From: Octopus sinensis
Taxonomy: Eukaryota
Reading direction: 5' to 3'
Assembly (NCBI RefSeq): GCF_006345805.1
Contig: NC_042997.1
Location: 42,842,001 to 42,906,000, forward strand
DNA: 64,000 bases
The position numbers and the translations under genes were made by a program. The notes below the pieces were generated by a model, which made no database searches, was not told the origin of the DNA, and saw only the letters and a program-made list of their open reading frames with translations. Every line of letters starts with the position of its first letter. Within the stretch, counting starts at the first letter, position 1. Positions 14,940 to 50,803 of the stretch are shown one piece after another.

Positions 14940-16712
14940 CCATATATTGTCAGCTCCAGCTCGTATCTGAGCACTGGATATGTCAGTTTCTATCCAGTCT
15001 CCTCAGCAGATGTTTATGCAGAATGTGACTTTGGAGTCCAAATCGGTGGTGAAAGAGTCGTGGGAAGAATTCACACAAGATGGTCGGTGCGGGTTGAGGA
15101 TGTTGAAGAAGAGACAAGAAGGCCCCATTCGCTAGACGTGACCTGCCCAGCAGAGACGATGGCGAAGAATGGTGGCTTCAACACTTGGTAATGAGGTGCA
15201 GCAAAGAGCCGCCGTGTTGTTGGTAATGTGATTTTCCCATTGAATATTGAGGATCTGTCATAACTGAGATTGCTGGAATCATTCCAGGTGCTTAAAATCA
15301 TGGTGGTACAGCGTCCAAGTCTCACAAGCAGAGAGAAGAGTTGGGAGGACAATGGCATGGAAGACCATGATCTTTGTCTGGAAGTTCAGCACATGATTAA
15401 AGAATAGACATTGGCTGAGTCTACTGAAGGCAGAGTGGGCCGCCCTGATCTGGTTCTCCATGTCCTTTTCACATGTGGGGGTTTTCAAACGAATACTTCC
15501 AAGGTATGAGAAGTGTTCAACTTCTAGGGGTTGGCCAGTGATGCTAATGTTTGTGCATGAGTGGACTGTTCTAGCCTGGTGCAGGTGGGATCAGGGTCTT
15601 GGCCTTTAATATGTTTACCTGCAACCCAAAGCATTCATAAGCCACATTTTAAAGATCAACTGTCCTTTGTAGGCCATCTACAGTCTGGCTTGGGGTGTCA
15701 TCATCACCGGCACACTGCATCTCACAGACTGAGATGGTGGAGATCTTTGTCTTTGCGCAGAGACATGGGAGATTGAAGAGTCTGTCATCCAAGCGATAAT
15801 GCATGTTCATGGAAGGTGAGTCCAGTGGGATTTCATTGAACATGGCAGCCATGTACAAAGAGAAACAGGTTGGTGCCAGGACACATCCTTGCTTAAGACC
15901 CCTAGTGATAGGAAATGGGTTTGTAAAGGAATTTTGATGGTATACCTTACCCATGATGCCATTATGAAGGGAACGGACCAGGGCAATAAAGTCCTCCAAA
16001 CATCCAAACCGAGTAAGGACAGCCCACACTGCAAGATGGGAGACCATGTCAAAGGCTTGCTTTAGGTCCCAGAACATGAACAATGCAGGTGTTGTTGTTG
16101 TTTTTGACACTTCTCCTGAAGTTGGCAGGCACAAAAAATCATATCAGTTGTGCCTCAAGAGGGTCGAAAGCCACACAGGGATTCAGGGAGGACGTCTTCC
16201 GCAAGGATGAGGAGGCAACTGAGTAGGATACAGGCAATGATGATCTTGCTTGCAATACTCAAGAGTGAGATGCCCCGATAGTTGTTGCAATCCCCTCAGT
16301 CTTCCTTCTTGTAGATGGGGATGATAGTTGCATTGCAGAAATTATTCGGGAGGATCTTGCTTTCCCAGATCTTGAGGATAAGGAGCATCAGATGACTTCT
16401 CAGCTCAGGACCTCCATGCATGAAAAACTCAAATGGGATGTTGTCTAGTCCTGGAGATTTGCCTGGCTTTGTGCACTCAAATGCCTTGCTGAACTCGTGG
16501 GGCAAAGGCAGCAGAGACAGCTGTGGGGTGTTTTGGAGGAGGTCGTCAGAAGTGCATGAGTAGTCATTAAGTAGGCTCTCGAAATGAGACTTCCAGTGAT
16601 TGAGAATTCCTTGGGTGTCAGTTATTGTAAAGCCAGCTGCTTTCTTCAGGCTACCCACTGATGACCTTATGGGGGCTGAAGATCTCCTTGGTTGTGACGG
16701 AAAAGTGGCACA
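14940..16712 (-). pseudogene. Decayed RTE-clade (BovB-like) LINE reverse transcriptase region
   Basis: Frameshifted pieces KPGKSPGLDNIP, ATIIPIYKK, FWDLKQAFDMV, GLKQGCVLAPTCF, QCAGDD (the YADD position), FSYLGS, TKIMVFHAIVLPTLL..CETW occur in collinear order. Confidence 0.93.
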
Positions 16713-17471
16713 ATATATACAGACACATACACACACATACAAGTAGATGTACATGCATACATATACATATATACACATGGATCACCCTGATTACTGCTTT
16801 CTATGAATCATTGCAATCACAGAGATGTCTTAATTAATATTACGATTTCTACAACTAACACTACTATTTGTATTTATTCAGTAAACAGAAGAAAATTGAA
16901 CATTGTGTGAGAAAACTTTTGAGCCATGTTGTAAATTTATTTTAAAAGTGAAAGGTTAAAGATTTCAACAAAATTTTTATGAGCAAACAGTGAAGTAACC
17001 CACAATGAATATGACGGAAAAACTCTGTGTAGGAACAGTGCAGTAGAGGCATTCCAAAGATAACAGGTTAACATGAAAGATGAGAATAACATTTAGAAAT
17101 GACCTTAGCAGTACTAAAATTTTAATTATATCTCCTTTGACTATAACATCCTTTTCTTCCTATTATTATTTTATGCTTGCTTTGATCTTATTCTTTTTCA
17201 AAATCAGCACCAAAAAAGGCCGCTGTCAGCTACAAATGTGGTGGTCGCCTCAAGTCATATATGAGTGAAAATTTTGAAACATTTTGGAAAATACTAAATT
17301 AGTTCATTTAAGGTCATTTTCTTGCCATTTAGTTTCAGAAGATGATTTAGTATTTCTAGTAACTGAGATACAATTATTAAAGGAAGTATAACATGAATTA
17401 CAACCAGAAATCAGAATCAGTTTTAGAATCTAATACTTTACTAAACTGATTACTGCAAAATGTCTAATGAA

Positions 17472-24700: not shown

Positions 24701-25124
24701 TATTGTAGTCAGTGCTCTACAAATTTTAACATTCATAGCCTTACTATCATAATAATAATAATAATAATGATTAGCAGGACCCATGAATATTTCACAGAAT
24801 TAATGGTAAACTTATTGGGTTATTTTTGAAAACTTATCCAAAAAAGCTGAAAGTGCAACCTGTGTTGTGTCTGTATCAAAAGATAGTTGCTCATCTACTA
24901 ATCAGCGAAAAGCGAAGGAAGTTGGAATACAATGATTACTTAATACACTTTATATACTTAATGCACAATTTTATAGAATTAATACACAACACTCTCCCTC
25001 TTTCTCCCTCATTCTTTGCCTTACCCTCTTTTTTCTCTCCTTTTTTTTTTTACTCTTCACCTCTCCCTTCAACTAATCATGTGAAGTGTTACAGATGGGC
25101 TAAGTAACGGAGGAAAAAAACATA

Positions 25125-25441
25125 TACATTATTTACATTTGACGGATATTTGTCCTCATCTTGTTTGTTGTTGACACAATGTTTCGGCTGATATACCCTC
25201 CAGCCTTCATCAGGTGTCTTGGGGAAATTTCGAACCTGGGTTCTCATTCCTAAGCTATTTTTCGATATTATTATTATTATTATTACTATTATTTAGGTCA
25301 CTGCTTAGAATCAAACTTGGAATCTTGGGGTTAGTAGCCCGTGCTCTTAACCACTATGCCATATGCCCATGGGCATATGAGGACAAATATCTGTTAAATG
25401 TAAATAATGTACATAATTCCTCGTCTCTTAAATATAGAACT
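25125..25441 (-). mobile_element. tRNA-headed, hammerhead-containing SINE-like element with inverted-repeat architecture
   Basis: TSD GAAAAAAACATA (25113-25124 / 25442-25453); 35-bp inverted repeat 25125-25159 / 25377-25411 (33 of 35); tRNA-like head 25368-25296 with TGGCATAGTGG and GTTTGATTC; central palindrome 25360-25379. Confidence 0.82.
25173..25218 (-). ncRNA. Minimal type I hammerhead ribozyme motif
   Basis: Minus strand reads GACAC-CUGAUGA-A-GGCUG-gaggguauau-CAGCC-GAAA-CAUU-GUGUC: both core boxes, 5-bp stem I, 5-bp stem II, vestigial stem III. Confidence 0.8.
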
Positions 25442-25596
25442 GAAAAAAACATAGTTAAAAAAAATTAAACATTTCACTCACTACCACCTCTCCTTCCCCA
25501 TCTCTCTTCTCTTCCTCTTCTCCCCTCCTTCAACTAATCCTGTGGAAGCATTACAGACAGGCTAAGTAATGGAGAAACAAGTAGAATTATTAGAAG

Positions 25597-25732
25597 ATCC
25601 TTTCTACTATAGGCACAAGGCCTGAAATTTGGGAAAGGAGAATTGACAATTACATCAACCCCAGTGTTCAACTGGTATTTATTATACTGACTCTGGAAGG
25701 ATGAAAGGCAAAGTTGGCTCCAGCGGCATTAC

Positions 25733-25765
<33 letters not shown>

Positions 25766-25978
25766 CCTTTCTATTATAGGCACAAGGCCTGAAATTTGGG
25801 GGAAAGGGATAGTCGATCAGATTGACCCCAGTACTCAACTGGTACTTAATTTATCAACTCCAAAAGGATGAAAGCTAAAGTTGACCTCAGTGCAATTTGA
25901 ACTCAGAATGTAGTGACAGGCGAAATACTGCTAAGCATTTTGCCCAGCATGCTAACAATTCTGCCAGCTTGCCCCCCT

Positions 25979-25980
<2 letters not shown>
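25597..25980 (-). mobile_element. Two adjacent family B SINE copies with (AAT)n ends
   Basis: ATCCTTTCTA.TATAGGCACAAGGCCTGAAATTTGG occurs at about 25597 and 25763, each followed by the Meta-like domain in reverse. Confidence 0.8.
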
Positions 25981-25982
<2 letters not shown>

Positions 25983-26012
<30 letters not shown>

Positions 26013-26463
26013 ACGAACTAGTGAGTTAAGTTTAATGGCCTACCAATGTATACTATGAGTTTCTGTGCCCTAGGAGTCGGGAAGACACTCGGCAAGAAAT
26101 GGAAGCAAATTTGAAAGAAGAAAAATCCATAAATAATAATAATAATAATAATAACAATAATAATAATAATAATGAACAAACTAGTGAGTTAAGTTTAATG
26201 GCCTACCAATGTATACTATGAGTTTCTGTGCCCTAGGAGTCGGGAAGACACTCGGCAAGAAATGGAAGCAAATTTGAAAGAAGAAGAAAAATCCATAAAT
26301 AATAATAATAATAATAATAACAATAATAATAATAATAATGAACAAACTAGTGAGTTAAGTTTAATAGCCTACCAATGTATACTATGAGTTTCTGTGCCCT
26401 AGGAGTCGGGAAGACACTCGGCAAGAAATGGAAGCAAATTTGAAAGAAGAAGAAAAATCCATA

Positions 26464-26516
<53 letters not shown>

Positions 26517-26651
26517 ATGAACTAGTGAGTTAAGTTTAATGGCCTACCAATGTATACTATGAGTTTCTGTGCACTAGGAGTCGGGAAGACACTCGGCAAG
26601 AAATGGAAGCAAATTTGAAAGAAGAAGACAAATCCATAAATAATAATAATA

Positions 26652-26681
<30 letters not shown>
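25983..26681 (+). repeat. Four-unit tandem array: core of about 122 bp separated by (AAT)n
   Basis: Cores start at 26011, 26174, 26340 and 26515 and are nearly identical. Confidence 0.95.
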
Positions 26682-37872: not shown

Positions 37873-38270
37873 GGTGGCGAGCTGGCAGGAACGTTAGCAT
37901 GCTGGGTGAAATGCTTAGCGGTATTTTGTTTGTCACTATGTTCTGAGTTCAAATTCCACTGAGGTTGACTTTGCCTTTCATCCTTTCGGGGTCGATAAAT
38001 TAAGTACCAATTACGCACTGGGGTCAACGTAATCGACTTAATACCTATGTCTGTCCTTGTTTGTCCCCTCTATGTTTAGCCCCTTGTGGGTAATAAAGAA
38101 ATAGGTATTTTGTCTGCCACTATGTTCTGAGTTCAAATTCCACTGAGGTTGATTTTGCCTTTCATCCTTTCGGGGTTGATAAATTTAGTACCAGTTGCAT
38201 ACTGTGGTCAATCTAATTGACTGGCCCCACCTCCCCAAAAATTTCAGGCCTCGTGCCTAGAGAAGAAAAG
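37873..38270 (+). mobile_element. SINE family B with a duplicated B-box/Meta segment
   Basis: GGTATTTTGT.TG.CACTATGTTCTGAGTTCAAATTCC...GTACCA occurs at about 37920 and again at about 38104. Confidence 0.85.
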
Positions 38271-41200
38271 ATTATACTTTGGCTCCTGAAATGATAATCA
38301 AAAGGCCCCAAGTTCAATAACATAGCAAGGCATCATGGGTAAAATGCCTTTTACCATAGCTTCAGGGAAAACTGAGCTATTTGTAGTATTTGGCTACAAC
38401 CTGTTCATTTAACACCTGTTTTCCATTCTGGTATGGGTCATTAAAATTTTGCCAGGGTTGTCTTTGCCTTTTATCGTTCCAATTTTAATAAAATAAGAAC
38501 AAACATCCAGCCATATTATCCAATCATTGAGTCCTTGAAAATTTTACTGTAATGTCAAATTCCATAACATGAAACCTGTTTTCTTATTGGCTTCTTTGTT
38601 ATGCAAAATAAAGTAGTCAATGGGAAAAAAATAGGTTATATTACAGGATTTTACATTATGGCAAAATTGTCAAAACACTATTTCCATAATGTGAAAGATG
38701 CCTGTACTAGTCATGTGCTTTAGACAATAAAATGGATTACATTCCCCACTTCTAAAATTCAGCTGTATCAAAGTTAGAATGCATTATTAATATATTTGTT
38801 ACCACCGTTACACTACCTAAAACTTGGACTTCAGATTTGATTGTGCCCATTCTGACCATAAAACTTATGAAACCCTTCAAAGCCCCACTTTTATAGCAGT
38901 TAGGCCTTAAAAGATAAGAGTTTTGTTTTCTTTTTATACTAATAAAATGTAAAACTAATGCAGTCAGACTGTACCAACAACACTAAAAAATTCTAACAAG
39001 AATCGAAATTTGAATTATTCTGCTGTAAATAAATCTACATCTGCTGAATTTATGTATTCATAAGTTTTGTGAGCCTTCAACCACTTGTGAGCCCTTGGTG
39101 CACTGGGAAAAGAAAAGGCTGGAGAAGTCAACCTCAACGGCAATTCAAGGAGTCAGTCAGGCAGTCTGGTGTGCTCTTTGACACCCTTCCAGGAACTCAA
39201 GAGTTGCTGGAGCTCTCAAGCCCTGTCAATCAACTCAGCTAGAAGAATACCACTCTAGTGTAAAACTTACAGCTTGCTGGACATTGCAGCTGTCTTAGAC
39301 TACCAAGCAACTGTGGCTAAAGAGAACTACTATACTACTATACTAGACTGTGACTAAAGAGAACTACTATACTAAGCACAGGCAAGAAGAAAAAGCCCTG
39401 TAACACCAAGGATCAGTTCACATAGTCACTGGAGAGCTTTCCTCTCTTCTGCATGATCTTCAGAAATAAAGAAACCGCTCTCATATAATTAACAGCCAAA
39501 TGAGCAATGTTTTACTGACAACATTTAAATAACAACATCAAAATGGCTGTCTTCTCTTATTTAATATATTCCCAGAGATAATGGTAAGAAATACATGTGC
39601 TCAAACTTTGTTCAAGTAGAAATACTGACATGTATTTTAACAATCCCAAAGAAATGAATGATTAAGTTAAGCTTAATACAATGTGAGTCTGACAGGTTTT
39701 AAGATCAAATCATTATAAATATTTCAAACTGAGTAGACACATACAATAATGTGAGTAAATATTATGAAAAAACTGCATGAAGTATACACACATGTAAAAT
39801 GAAATTAGGTTTCTCAGTGCAAAGTGTGAGTAGCTCTTAATAAGTATATGAAAGTCAGCATGAATTTGTTGTAGAGAAACAATGTTAAAAATCATGCATT
39901 TTATTGAATTAAGTCCCATACATCTCAAAGGATGCAAATGATGGATCTTGATAACAGAAATATTGTAGAAAATTCACTTATTATAAAAGTCAATCTTTCC
40001 CTCCTCTAGAAAGTGCCATTAAATAAATTACAGCAGTGTTTTTGTGATAAGAATAAAGCCTACAACTTACTTCTTATATAAATATATTTGATGACAATTT
40101 TATTTTTTTTTACTTTATAAATATGAAAAGTTAAAAAGAAAAAAAAGCTAGCTATCAAAGATATGTTATTCAAAATCTTTAGTAGTTTCAATAAAAGAAG
40201 CATTGACAACCTCTGCTTTAAGATAAAGAGTAACAAAAAGAAAAATGTAAAAAAAAAAAAAAACTTTGAAAACCAAAGTCAACCGAGCAATTCAGAATAT
40301 TAACAAATAAAAGTAAATGCTATGTAGCATTTTTAGCACCAACATGCTACTGCTTCTGCCATCACAGATAATATCAAATATATCCGATTTCAAAACACCA
40401 TCAAACATATAATAAAATACTTTTCTATAAATTCTTGTTTTATTAACAAGATTGGCTGCTAGTAAATTATCAAGGATTTGTGAATTATTCTGGGCCAGCT
40501 GGACAAGATATTAGCCAACAAATATATGAATCAAGAATTCATATATGCACTGCAGGTATTTCATTGTCTCAGACTAAGATAATTAATTCTACATCATCTC
40601 AGTTCATCTAGTTGTGAGGAATATGTAGTAGGCTGTTTAGGAAAGCTATCTAACTCTGTATTCAGGAAAATATTTGACTTATCTACTAAAAGCTATAGAA
40701 CTTTATATCAAAGTAACTAGCATTGCATGTCCTTTCTTATTTTATTAGATTAATGGCTATAATCTGACATAACATTGCATTGATAATTCTGCAACTATTA
40801 CTAATCTGCTACCAGGATTGCAATAGCAATGTCGTACAAACTAAGAATTTACATCCCTCGTAAGAAATGTAACAAAAACACCATAAGTAGGTCAAATTAT
40901 AGAAATGATATTCTTTGATTTTTTACTGAAATAAAGGTTTAAGCTTTTGTTGTCTCCTTTTTATAAAGGTTTATAACATCAATTTTTTTTCTTTAATTGA
41001 ATATTTTCCAGGTGATTTACTTTTTAAAAAATAATAATAATAATAATACACCACGAGAAAGACTGATTTTGTTTTTCTTAAATAAAAAAGAAAAAAAATT
41101 TTCTTTGAATGTGCTGTACTCAAAGGAAGATAATTTTCATTTGGAAGGATGGGGGAGTGTTCTTGTATGAATTGAGCTGTCTTCAAAACAAAAATAAATA

Positions 41201-49012: not shown

Positions 49013-50803
49013 CTAGTGACTAGCTTGATACTGGTGTTTCTCACACAAGATATCATAATCAATTTTAATGAACTCATTTAGTCTGAGTCTGATAGTTCCT
49101 CTGCTGTTGACATCTAATTTATTTCTTTTTCTACTTAAAATATCTACAACAGATGAAAATGCAGATTCCACCATCCATGTGGTAGGGAAAGAAATGATGC
49201 TTGCTACATGTCGAAAAATATTTGGGTGTGATCCCTTTATCGATATGTAGGCAAAGACACCCCCTTTTTCAACTCTTCTTCTCAGTTTCATATTCTCTTT
49301 CAAGTCCAACATTTCAGCCACCTCAAAATTTTCATCTCCTGGCTCATAATCTTCTAGGTCTACAAACCAGAGTGGATAATCCATCTTTAATAAATCATTG
49401 TATCTTTTCTCAAAGTCTACATGAAAACCTTCAAGATGGGCAATGCATGAAGCAATGCATTCTGATGTAGGAACGGTGGTGTTAAAATTTCAAATGATGC
49501 CAATCTTTTTTTTTTAACTGTTTTTTCCAAAATTTTAATTTCCCCATATAGGCTAGAGTAGAAGACACTTGCCCAAGGTGCCATGCAGTGGTACTGAACC
49601 CAGAACCATGTGGTTGGTAAGCAAGCTACTTACCACACACCCACTCCTGCGCCTATGTAGAATATTTTTGATTTAAACTGGGAAAGTCTTTCCAAAATTT
49701 TCTTAGCTGTATCAGTTTGCTTCTTGGATTTGTAATGAGTCATCTGACTCTTGAACATGAGAAAGTTGATTAATGGTTCCCACAAATTCACCAGTCTTTC
49801 AATGCTCAGGCCTTTTGACAACCATCTTACTTCTGTGTGAAGCAATAGGGTTTTAAAATCTTCATCTTTACAGAATTGCATAAAAAATCTGTTATTCATT
49901 AAGTTTGATTTGACAAAGTTAATTGCATGTATGGCAGTGTTGAGTACTTCTTCCATCTGTCCAATATTCTTAGCAACAAGATGCTGCCTGTGGATAATGC
50001 AATGTATATAAAAGATGTAAGGAGCAACTGATTTCATTCTAGAAACAAAGTCTTTCATTTTTCCAGTCATGGCTGCAACTCCATCTGATGCAATGTTGAT
50101 CAAATTAGTCAATGGAATATTTTTATCATTAAAATACTGCATTACTTCATTGAATATATCTTCTCCATTAGTAGTTTCAGACATTTCTTCCCTTATATCA
50201 TCTTCATGGTTGAATCTGACATAGACCAGAAAGATAGCTTGGTTAAGAATTGTGCTATCATCAACCTGGATAGAAAAATTTATCTTTTGGAGAATTTCAA
50301 CAATCTTCTCCTCAACAAAATTAGACATTTCATCCTGTCTTTTTGTAATTGTGTTATTTGAAAGTGGAATTGTACTCAGAGTAGATGCAGCATCTTTTCC
50401 CAGAACTTCATTTGCACAAGCTATCATAGCAGGCTTAACAGGTTCCTCACGATAAATCTGAGGTGCTGCAACCTTGGCAATAATTTCAGAGACCAAATAA
50501 CTTGGTTTAAGTGTCTTTGCTTTTTCAGTAAATATCGTCTTTACAAAAGTCGGGTAGTTTGATTGGCTGCATTTTCTTTTTATTCTCAAAATATTCCCTA
50601 CTTTTATCAACAGGTAATGGATGCCTTAATTTCTGGTGCTGTTCCAGCTTAACTTTCTTCGTGGAATGATTTGTCATGATGGCATCACATTCAAGACACA
50701 CAGGTTTGGAGTCTACAGATACAAAACCAAACATGATAAAATCTTCTTTGTAGTTCCTCAGTTTTGCAATTTTAGTAGCTGGTTCAGACATTATTACAAC
50801 CAA
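49013..50803 (-). pseudogene. hAT transposase pseudogene (ZBED5/ZBED8/SCAND3-like)
   Basis: BED finger (PVCLEC..HQKLRH), IPLSNNTI, FSIQVDDST, IASDGVAAM, HCIIHRQHL, HTEVRWLSKG and FPTTWMVESAFS, with frameshifts and a SINE insertion. Confidence 0.93.
49549..49654 (-). mobile_element. SINE family A head inside the hAT transposase
   Basis: GAAGACACTTGCCCAAGG...CCTGCGCCT. Confidence 0.9.

What the first reader, a model, noticed from the sequence alone, without database searches (positions are those of the whole stretch)
25125..25441. Pol III-type tRNA head coupled to a hammerhead ribozyme in a Penelope-like inverted element
Seen: on the minus strand a tRNA-like head with A and B boxes (25368-25296) is followed by (AAT)n and then a complete minimal hammerhead core (GACAC CUGAUGA A GGCUG..CAGCC GAAA CAUU GUGUC). 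The unit sits in a 35-bp inverted repeat with a 30-bp one-sided extension, a 20-bp central palindrome and a 12-bp TSD. Established: minimal type I hammerheads with a vestigial stem III, inverted pseudo-LTRs and short 3' extensions are hallmarks of Penelope-like elements, and ribozyme-bearing non-autonomous repeats exist (retrozymes, Schistosoma Sm-alpha). Inference: this is a SINE-like, self-cleaving element transcribed by Pol III and mobilised by Penelope-type machinery rather than by a LINE. It was probably a full palindrome whose right arm was lost across an ATG microhomology at 25377-25379. Stem III ACAU is one CpG transition from palindromic ACGU, so this copy may be impaired.
Basis: partly seen in the sequence, partly recalled or inferred. 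Interest (0 to 1): 0.85.

Follow-up and report, generated by a model that had tools for sequence, protein, structure and literature searches.

The report
Penelope retrotransposon with tRNA-derived start
This stretch is the end piece of a protein-coding Penelope-type jumping gene, not a separate SINE; its copies begin at a borrowed tRNA-like sequence that likely serves as its promoter, which would make it an unusual jumping gene read by the tRNA-making polymerase.

Summary
In detail: tRNA-like head, (AAT)n, minimal hammerhead, unequal inverted arms, central palindrome and TSD are all there. The 'SINE' reading does not hold as stated. The same sequence is the pseudo-LTR of an autonomous Penelope/Poseidon element in this genome (2.66-kb unit, 835-codon RT + GIY-YIG frame), and the hammerhead lies inside that element's first codons. 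Short and long copies show no diagnostic differences. Insertions carry the known Penelope signature: 42 of 46 inverted pairs have the tail on one arm only. The hammerhead is the published minimal PLE type; this copy is CpG-decayed in stem III and the B box.

What seems new: copy 5' ends pile up about 9-fold at the tRNA head, near-full-length copies start there too, and the sense strand has no TTTT run in 2.66 kb (about 3-6 expected, P 0.001-0.04). No tRNA-like head was seen in the pseudo-LTRs of relatives from other organisms. The element's RNA therefore likely starts at a captured tRNA-type promoter, possibly with Pol III making a coding retrotransposon RNA. The polymerase is untested, and some relatives are equally T-poor. 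Verdict: new variant of a known kind; interest 0.55.

The parts
25113..25124 (+). Target-site duplication, left copy (9-12 bp; the last bases can also be read as element)
   Evidence: 12-nt exact direct repeat with 25442-25453; TSDs of 8 nt or more in 34 of 53 inverted-arm rows, control 1 of 92
25122..25375 (-). Long arm: pseudo-LTR of the Penelope/Poseidon element from about -6 to +253 (+1 = first G of the tRNA-like head), ending at the tail-less reverse-transcription start
   Evidence: 92.5% match to the family's column-majority 3' end; 3' ends of 100 arms are bimodal, about 250-256 and about 281
25360..25379 (.). Central 20-bp palindrome at the head-to-head junction, built on the element's own imperfect palindrome TGCCC-AC-GGGCA (centre AT here by CpG decay)
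   Evidence: this junction has 794 strand matches in G000, most loci counted on both strands; the read-through form has 398
25296..25368 (-). tRNA-derived head, the likely internal promoter (A box 25361-25351, B box 25316-25307; both carry CpG transitions in this copy)
   Evidence: 38-49 identities in about 76 columns to 11 host tRNAs, z 1.8-6.6, no clear isotype; commonest boxes TGGCGTAGTGG and GTTCGATTCC
25267..25293 (-). (AAT)n tract in the 5' leader; length varies between copies
25125..25247 (-). First 41 codons of the element's RT + GIY-YIG ORF (ATG at 25247)
   Evidence: first in-frame ATG at +127 of the 872-codon open frame; 11 of 20 identities to the N-terminus of relative P0005, E 5e-5
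25173..25218 (-). Minimal type I hammerhead (extra A after A9, 5-bp stem II, no intramolecular stem III); predicted cut between 25178 and 25177; stem III decayed to ACAU
   Evidence: same architecture as in PMC4209133
25377..25442 (+). Short inverted arm: 5'-truncated second copy (+217 to +282) with the 30-bp tail (25412-25441), joined to the centre across a CAT/ATG microhomology
   Evidence: 95% match to family positions 217-282; 42 of 46 inverted pairs have the tail on one arm only
25442..25453 (+). Target-site duplication, right copy

Best explanation
The insert is a decayed, two-armed solo pseudo-LTR of an autonomous Penelope/Poseidon retrotransposon whose copies preferentially begin at a tRNA-derived head that likely acts as an internal RNA polymerase III promoter. 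Steps: (1) Shown: the head, (AAT)n, hammerhead and tail form both ends of a 2.66-kb RT + GIY-YIG element. (2) Inferred from copy ends: the RNA starts 1-7 nt before the tRNA-like +1 and runs into the ORF. (3) Inferred by analogy with the Anolis element: the protein cuts both target strands with a 10-15 bp stagger and primes reverse transcription inside the RNA at two sites (+250-256 and +281). Priming in the 5' pseudo-LTR gives a short copy that ends at the RNA start; priming in the 3' pseudo-LTR gives ORF-bearing copies. (4) Inferred: the two cDNAs, one from each target end, join head to head through the near-palindromic RNA start or through microhomology. (5) Predicted: the hammerhead works only as a dimer or with protein help, and this copy's ACAU stem and decayed B box make it inactive. 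Step 1 is near certain, steps 2-4 about 0.8, the Pol III assignment about 0.55.
For: ORF end runs straight into the head in L040, L058, L245 (398 exact junctions). The tail runs into the ORF N-terminus (134 exact junctions). One 872-codon open frame with DKG, YVDD and GIY-YIG motifs; 33% identity to an 836-aa Anolis carolinensis PLE protein. 5' ends: 31 of 93 loci end in -20..+20, 8.7 times the background rate, P 5e-15. Among arms with no inverted partner, 9 end in -19..+10 against 1 in the 240 nt upstream. Of 54 copies that run from the ORF into the 5' pseudo-LTR, 5 reach the head and 4 stop there. No diagnostic column between 69 long and 73 short copies. No TTTT on the sense strand of the unit: 3.05 expected with its own codons permuted, P 0.023; 3.0-5.6 under three other nulls, P 0.04-0.001. 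27 LINE ORFs in the same assembly have 0.7-6.7 per kb, near expectation. The two cDNA ends are predicted to pair at -10.4 kcal/mol against -0.6 for a hairpin; the centre points to the tailed arm in 5 cases and to the other in 4.
Against: No transcript start, cap type or polymerase was measured. The TTTT deficit is modest: natural copies have 0.43 per kb and 3 of 34 composition-matched relatives are as low; GGGG is also absent, though only 1 is expected. A TATAA lies 30-34 nt before the head, at the ORF stop, and the studied PLE promoters are Pol II-like (PMC2377424, PMC8557442). An uncapped Pol III RNA is a poor mRNA (recalled). One of the 5 copies reaching the head reads on into an upstream ORF, so multimeric templates exist. 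The head is too diverged for ARAGORN or Rfam.
Confidence: 0.55

Rival explanations
1. Same element and same RNA start, but RNA polymerase II makes the RNA; the tRNA-like stretch is a captured SINE or tRNA head that now serves as 5' leader or as part of a Pol II internal promoter.
For: D. virilis Penelope has a TATA-less internal promoter like Drosophila LINEs; Chlamys-3 also starts in its pseudo-LTR. TATAA 30-34 nt upstream of the head. A protein-coding RNA normally needs a cap (recalled). The genome is rich in SINEs with similar heads that could have been captured.
Against: Commonest A and B boxes fit the Pol III consensus and vary mainly by CpG decay. Ends sit where a pre-tRNA leader would start. 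No TTTT in 2.66 kb. Copies that begin at the head lack the upstream TATAA.
Confidence: 0.25
2. One reading: solo pseudo-LTRs live as an independent Pol III SINE or retrozyme that borrows the Penelope protein.
For: Hammerhead-bearing arms outnumber ORF-end arms about tenfold (6158 against 761 exact 23-mers; 11 of 100 arms extend upstream of the head zone). Solo copies starting at the head with TSDs exist (L173, L181, L214, L235). Pol III SINE-like hammerhead repeats exist in Schistosoma, and non-autonomous PLE derivatives are proposed in vertebrates.
Against: No short-copy subfamily (lowest P 0.005 among about 280 columns). Background 5' truncation (about 0.3 per 100 nt) plus priming in the 5' pseudo-LTR accounts for the excess. 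In the Anolis element the template needs ORF sequence beyond both priming sites, which solo copies lack. No head-to-tail array of the short unit among the 100 arms mapped.
Confidence: 0.12
3. The pile-up of ends at the head is a reverse-transcriptase stop or fold-back hot spot on long multimeric RNAs, caused by the TGCCC-AC-GGGCA hairpin, and marks no promoter.
For: The exact palindromic junction is about as common as read-through. L519 shows a partial tandem.
Against: The hairpin is weak (-0.6 kcal/mol). Arms without any inversion cluster at the same place. Centre orientation is random. A tRNA-like fold should stall reverse transcription at its 3' side, where the rate is background (8 events in 2295 nt).
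Confidence: 0.08

Closest known systems
Penelope/Poseidon-clade PLEs, e.g. Poseidon of Anolis carolinensis (PAc; Frangieh et al. 2024, PMC11167929)
   Same: RT then C-terminal GIY-YIG with a short linker; hammerhead overlapping the ORF start; two internal priming sites that define a 30-bp tail; inverted 5'-truncated arm; TSDs
   Different: The pseudo-LTR begins with a tRNA-derived head with A and B boxes and an (AAT)n leader, and the sense strand has no TTTT. No such head was seen in the relatives fetched. PAc's own DNA file could not be read.
Minimal hammerheads of metazoan PLEs (Cervera and de la Pena 2014, PMC4209133)
   Same: CUGANGA plus one extra base, G10.1-C11.1, short stem I, palindromic 15.2-16.2; found mostly in single truncated copies and opposite-strand pairs 100-700 bp apart
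   Different: Nothing in the ribozyme itself; this copy is decayed
Schistosoma Sm-alpha / Sj-alpha repeats (as reviewed in PMC6765202)
   Same: Pol III-type promoter followed by a type I hammerhead
   Different: Those are non-coding, often tandem repeats with an active ribozyme; here the unit is the terminus of a coding element and inserts as inverted arms
Animal non-LTR retrozymes (PMC7229834; bioRxiv 10.64898/2026.07.22.740005)
   Same: Short hammerhead-bearing units related to PLE pseudo-LTRs
   Different: Defined by head-to-tail tandems, not seen here; no tRNA head in the sections or passages read

Membership tests
EN+ Penelope-like element, Penelope/Poseidon clade | Single ORF with PLE-type RT and C-terminal GIY-YIG endonuclease | tested here: met
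   872-codon frame with DKG, YVDD, YSIPC..YKGET, EH and RKLKEA motifs; RVT_1 E 1e-11 on one of four natural fragments; relatives carry PF00078, some PF01541. All copies seen are broken.
EN+ Penelope-like element, Penelope/Poseidon clade | No zinc-finger linker between RT and EN (unlike Neptune and Nematis) | tested here: met
   Nearly gap-free alignment to the Anolis protein across the thumb-EN junction; no tree was built
EN+ Penelope-like element, Penelope/Poseidon clade | Pseudo-LTRs, inverted 5'-truncated arm, 30-40 bp tail on one end | tested here: met
   L285, L286, L287 have the repeat at both ends; 42 of 46 pairs have one tail
EN+ Penelope-like element, Penelope/Poseidon clade | Hammerhead in the pseudo-LTR | tested here: met
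EN+ Penelope-like element, Penelope/Poseidon clade | Intron in the 5' leader (some PLEs only) | tested here: inconclusive
   No GT..AG joint among the 15 best joints shown in each; 33 and 39 further joints were not shown
Minimal type I hammerhead | Conserved core with covarying stems | tested here: met
   20 distinct motifs (19 from relatives plus this family): 55 of 60 stem I pairs formed, shuffle mean 26, 0 of 5000 shuffles reach it; stem II was a filter and is no test
Minimal type I hammerhead | Self-cleavage as dimer or with protein | not testable with these tools
   Predicted stem III duplex -3.5 kcal/mol for AACGUU, +2.8 for this copy's AACAUU
tRNA-derived SINE | tRNA-related head with A and B boxes | tested here: met
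tRNA-derived SINE | Non-coding unit distinct from its autonomous partner except at the 3' end | tested here: not met
   The whole unit, head included, is part of the autonomous element and holds its first 41 codons
tRNA-derived SINE | Own source lineage (subfamilies) | tested here: not met
   No diagnostic column, 69 long against 73 short arms; small sample
tRNA-derived SINE | Transcribed by Pol III | not testable with these tools
   Only indirect signs
Non-LTR retrozyme | Head-to-tail tandem monomers released by hammerheads | tested here: not met
   No tandem array of the short unit among 100 mapped arms; no genome-wide tandem search was run
Non-LTR retrozyme | Circular RNA of monomer size | tested here: inconclusive
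   A few 'goes back' joints of 41-60 nt with extra letters fit single loci, not monomer circles; the libraries were not made for circles

The most novel reading that the evidence does not exclude
An autonomous, protein-coding Penelope retrotransposon captured a tRNA gene head and is transcribed end to end (2.7 kb) by RNA polymerase III, having purged every TTTT terminator from its coding strand. One Pol III RNA would serve as mRNA, as template for full copies and, by priming in its 5' repeat, as the source of tens of thousands of SINE-looking ribozyme copies: a snapshot of how a Pol III hammerhead SINE such as Sm-alpha could arise from a PLE.
Probability: 0.33. Interest if true: 0.8.

Novelty: new variant of a known kind. 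Interest (0 to 1): 0.55.

Why it matters
Studied PLE promoters are Pol II-like, and Pol III promoters in retroelements are known mainly from non-coding SINEs (recalled). A coding element that starts at a tRNA head would blur the line between SINE and autonomous element and raise a testable question: how is an uncapped RNA translated, and does the hammerhead 70 nt into the ORF matter for that? Self-cleavage can drive cap-independent translation in fungal RNA viruses (PMC13725137, abstract only). Even if Pol II makes the RNA, the family maps an RNA start, two priming sites and a two-cDNA junction from sequence alone. It also warns that repeat libraries may split such pseudo-LTRs off as SINEs.

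Tried and rejected
RNA evidence: no holder on record as RNA was listed. Two raw RNA runs and two contig sets were laid on the element: reads on both strands about equally, 71-89% of raw reads run on into unlike sequence, no place where many molecules begin or end, no GT..AG joint among those shown. This looks like passive read-through, the runs may be of a sister species, and it says nothing on promoter or cleavage.

5' ends at the predicted hammerhead cut: 5 of 90 ends fall within 5 nt after it, about twice the local rate; not accepted as evidence.

Pure fold-back copying of one arm: rejected, because in 4 of 9 informative loci the supposed copy has a tail that its template lacks. Allele concordance between arms was uninformative.

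A second PLE family in G000 as control: none found; all 30 top loci from a search with the Anolis protein are this family, and a scan of 1.16 Mb of held loci found none.

tRNA-like hits near three metagenome PLEs (L417, L442, L472) are neighbours upstream of truncated ORFs, not pseudo-LTR parts. The first A/B-box pattern could not match this family's own B box and was replaced.

tRNA isotype: not resolved. Rfam and ARAGORN: no hit. Viral contigs: no relative. First metagenome scan: none. Look-ups of earlier findings by sequence, by the full word set and by genome: nothing.

Full report
OBSERVATION. On the minus strand: a tRNA-like head from 25368, (AAT)n at 25293-25267, and a hammerhead at 25218-25173. 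Around it: 38-nt inverted arms, a 30-bp one-sided extension, a 20-bp central palindrome and a 12-nt direct repeat. G000 is a 2.72-Gb animal genome; its repeats look like those of an octopus (recalled, not tested). An exact 23-mer across the hammerhead core occurs 6158 times, control 0. With 52 of 224 independently chosen arms matching exactly, that is roughly 26,000 arms (rough, probably high). Positions below count from +1 = first G of the head.

IT IS THE END OF A CODING ELEMENT. In L040 and L058 the DNA upstream of the head is the end of a GIY-YIG domain; this junction has 398 exact matches. L245 holds an inverted tailed fragment, the remains of an RT-thumb-GIY-YIG frame, then head, (AAT)n and hammerhead. 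In L277 and L280 the unit begins at the head and runs through the tail into the ORF N-terminus; that junction has 134 exact matches. The commonest letters of 26 long arms give a 2663-bp unit with one open frame of 872 codons, first ATG at +127, with the PLE motifs in order. A natural 300-aa piece is 33% identical to an 836-aa Anolis carolinensis protein, which I take to be Poseidon. The 41 codons in the window match the N-terminus of relative P0005 (11 of 20, E 5e-5), so the hammerhead lies in coding sequence, as in the Anolis element. All 30 top loci of a search with the Anolis protein belong to this one family. Long arms differ from the majority by 4-8% and every copy seen is broken.

INSERTION SIGNATURE. 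I mapped the first 100 of the 6158 matches in contig order (all on C1, window copy included, seven loci giving two arms). 3' ends fall at about +250-256 or about +281. In 42 of 46 inverted pairs one arm has the tail and the other lacks it. TSDs of 8 nt or more flank 34 of 53 inverted-arm rows and 6 of 39 solo arms, against 1 of 92 in a shifted control. This is the published PLE pattern (PMC8557442), and the tail matches the two internal priming sites shown in vitro for the Anolis element (PMC11167929). The window's short arm carries the tail that its long arm lacks, so it was primed separately.

RIBOZYME. The motif is the published minimal PLE hammerhead: extra base after A9, short stem I, palindromic stem III, low activity and only as a dimer (PMC4209133). 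Across 20 distinct motifs (19 from the 80 metagenome relatives, plus this family) 55 of 60 stem I pairs form, and no shuffle of 5000 reaches that. In 199 arms from loci not chosen for the ribozyme, the most frequent non-CpG variant is at the free position N7 (25 of 126), and stem III reads ACGTT 52, ATGTT 21, ACATT 17. The window's ACAU is CpG decay and loses the predicted dimer helix. Cleavage was not tested.

WHERE THE RNA STARTS. With one arm per locus and the window copy left out, 31 of 93 5' ends lie in -20..+20. That is 8.7 times the background rate (P 5e-15; the AAT tract, 31 ends, was left out of the background); 11 arms pass further upstream. Among 40 arms without an inverted partner, 9 end in -19..+10 and 1 in the next 240 nt. 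Of the 134 tail-to-ORF junctions 90 were mapped; 54 extend at least 50 nt into the ORF, 5 of these reach the head by automatic chaining, 4 stop there (-13 with a short inversion, -7, -1, -1) and L519 reads on into an upstream ORF. L576 reaches part-way into the head by eye. So long and short copies point to one RNA start just before the tRNA-like +1. No column separates 69 ORF-attached from 73 head-starting arms (lowest P 0.005 among about 280 columns). The simplest source of the short copies is the element's own RNA, primed in its 5' pseudo-LTR.

THE CENTRE. The element itself reads TGCCC-AC-GGGCA across the start. The exact head-to-head junction has 794 strand matches, most loci counted twice. 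The AC centre points to the tailed arm in 5 loci and to the other in 4 (33 junctions examined, 9 informative). Two cDNA ends would pair at -10.4 kcal/mol, a hairpin at -0.6. I infer annealing of two separately primed cDNAs, with short fold-backs and microhomology joins as variants.

WHICH POLYMERASE. For Pol III: the head aligns to host tRNAs (38-49 identities in about 76 columns, z up to 6.6, no isotype); its commonest boxes fit the consensus and vary mainly by CpG decay; the sense strand has no TTTT in 2663 bp against 30 on the other strand, and none appears among the changed columns listed when 249 arms are used. Expected counts are 3.05 with the element's own codons permuted (P 0.023) and 3.0-5.6 under three other nulls (P 0.04, 0.001, 0.003). 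27 LINE ORFs in the assembly, from a handful of families, have 0.7-6.7 per kb near expectation, one being low under one null. The 34 of 80 relatives with similar T content average 2.1 per kb. Against: 3 of those 34 are as low as this family's natural copies (0.43 per kb); a TATAA lies 30-34 nt before the head; D. virilis Penelope has a LINE-like internal promoter; and a coding RNA normally needs a cap (recalled). The RNA reads laid do not decide the point. I put Pol III at about 0.55 for transcripts from the head and about 0.33 for the whole coding RNA.

IS THE HEAD GENERAL? A profile of 11 host tRNAs finds six copies of this family but, among 80 relatives, only three strong hits, all upstream of truncated ORFs and none between ORF end and hammerhead. 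Only about 20 of the 80 show that interval with a recognisable hammerhead, so the test is limited.

LITERATURE SEEN. PMC4209133 and PMC11167929: parts 1-2 of 4 each (results and discussion); for the latter also supplement 3, while its element file could not be read. bioRxiv 10.64898/2026.07.22.740005: parts 1-3 of 5, supplements closed. PMC8557442, PMC6765202, PMC7229834, PMC2377424, PMC13282606, PMC8967140: passages only. PMC13725137: abstract. No PLE with a tRNA-derived pseudo-LTR or Pol III promoter turned up in searches. Repbase, Dfam and the repeat libraries supplied with octopus papers were not seen and may hold this family. Three unchecked AI notes from other genomes describe tRNA modules in non-coding Penelope-type repeats without a ribozyme; they are leads, not support.

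VERDICT. The insertion and its ribozyme are known PLE anatomy, and the SINE label fails two membership tests. The tRNA-derived start of an autonomous element, with a terminator-free coding strand, is the new and testable part. New variant of a known kind; interest 0.55.

Noticed in passing
window 25050-25118 and 25512-25580: The element sits in an older local duplication (81% identical); the two copies were about 135 bp apart before the insertion.
   Followed up: no
window about 25730-26680 (L001 2110-3055): Several (AAT)n tracts about 150-170 bp apart, interleaved with another short repeat (25597-25681 resembles 25764-25848 and 38189-38272).
   Followed up: no
element +76 to +118, e.g. L153, L183, L227, L239: About a third of 5' ends lie in or just after the (AAT)n tract, often merged into long flanking AAT arrays; the tract may seed or target microsatellites.
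   Followed up: partly
L257, L258: An ORF N-terminal fragment is followed in direct orientation by a copy starting at -5, as a template jump from the RNA 5' end would leave.
   Followed up: partly
element 3' ends, e.g. L185, L284: The tail-less priming site often shows repeated AAATAATGT units, suggesting reiterative priming or slippage at that site.
   Followed up: no
L312-L315: Four loci hold nearly the same full-length insertion with the same flanks (three on small contigs): segmental duplicates or haplotype copies.
   Followed up: no
G000 small contigs, L334-L363 and L366-L377: Many intact LINE ORFs and tRNA genes unlike the chromosomal ones lie on unplaced contigs; these may come from another organism in the assembly.
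   Followed up: no
window 49015-50625 (-) and 15651-16781 (-): Decayed open frames that look like a hAT-type transposase and an RTE-type reverse transcriptase (labels recalled).
   Followed up: no
L380: A cluster of seven tRNA-Cys-like genes within 3 kb, four of them at 156-bp spacing.
   Followed up: no
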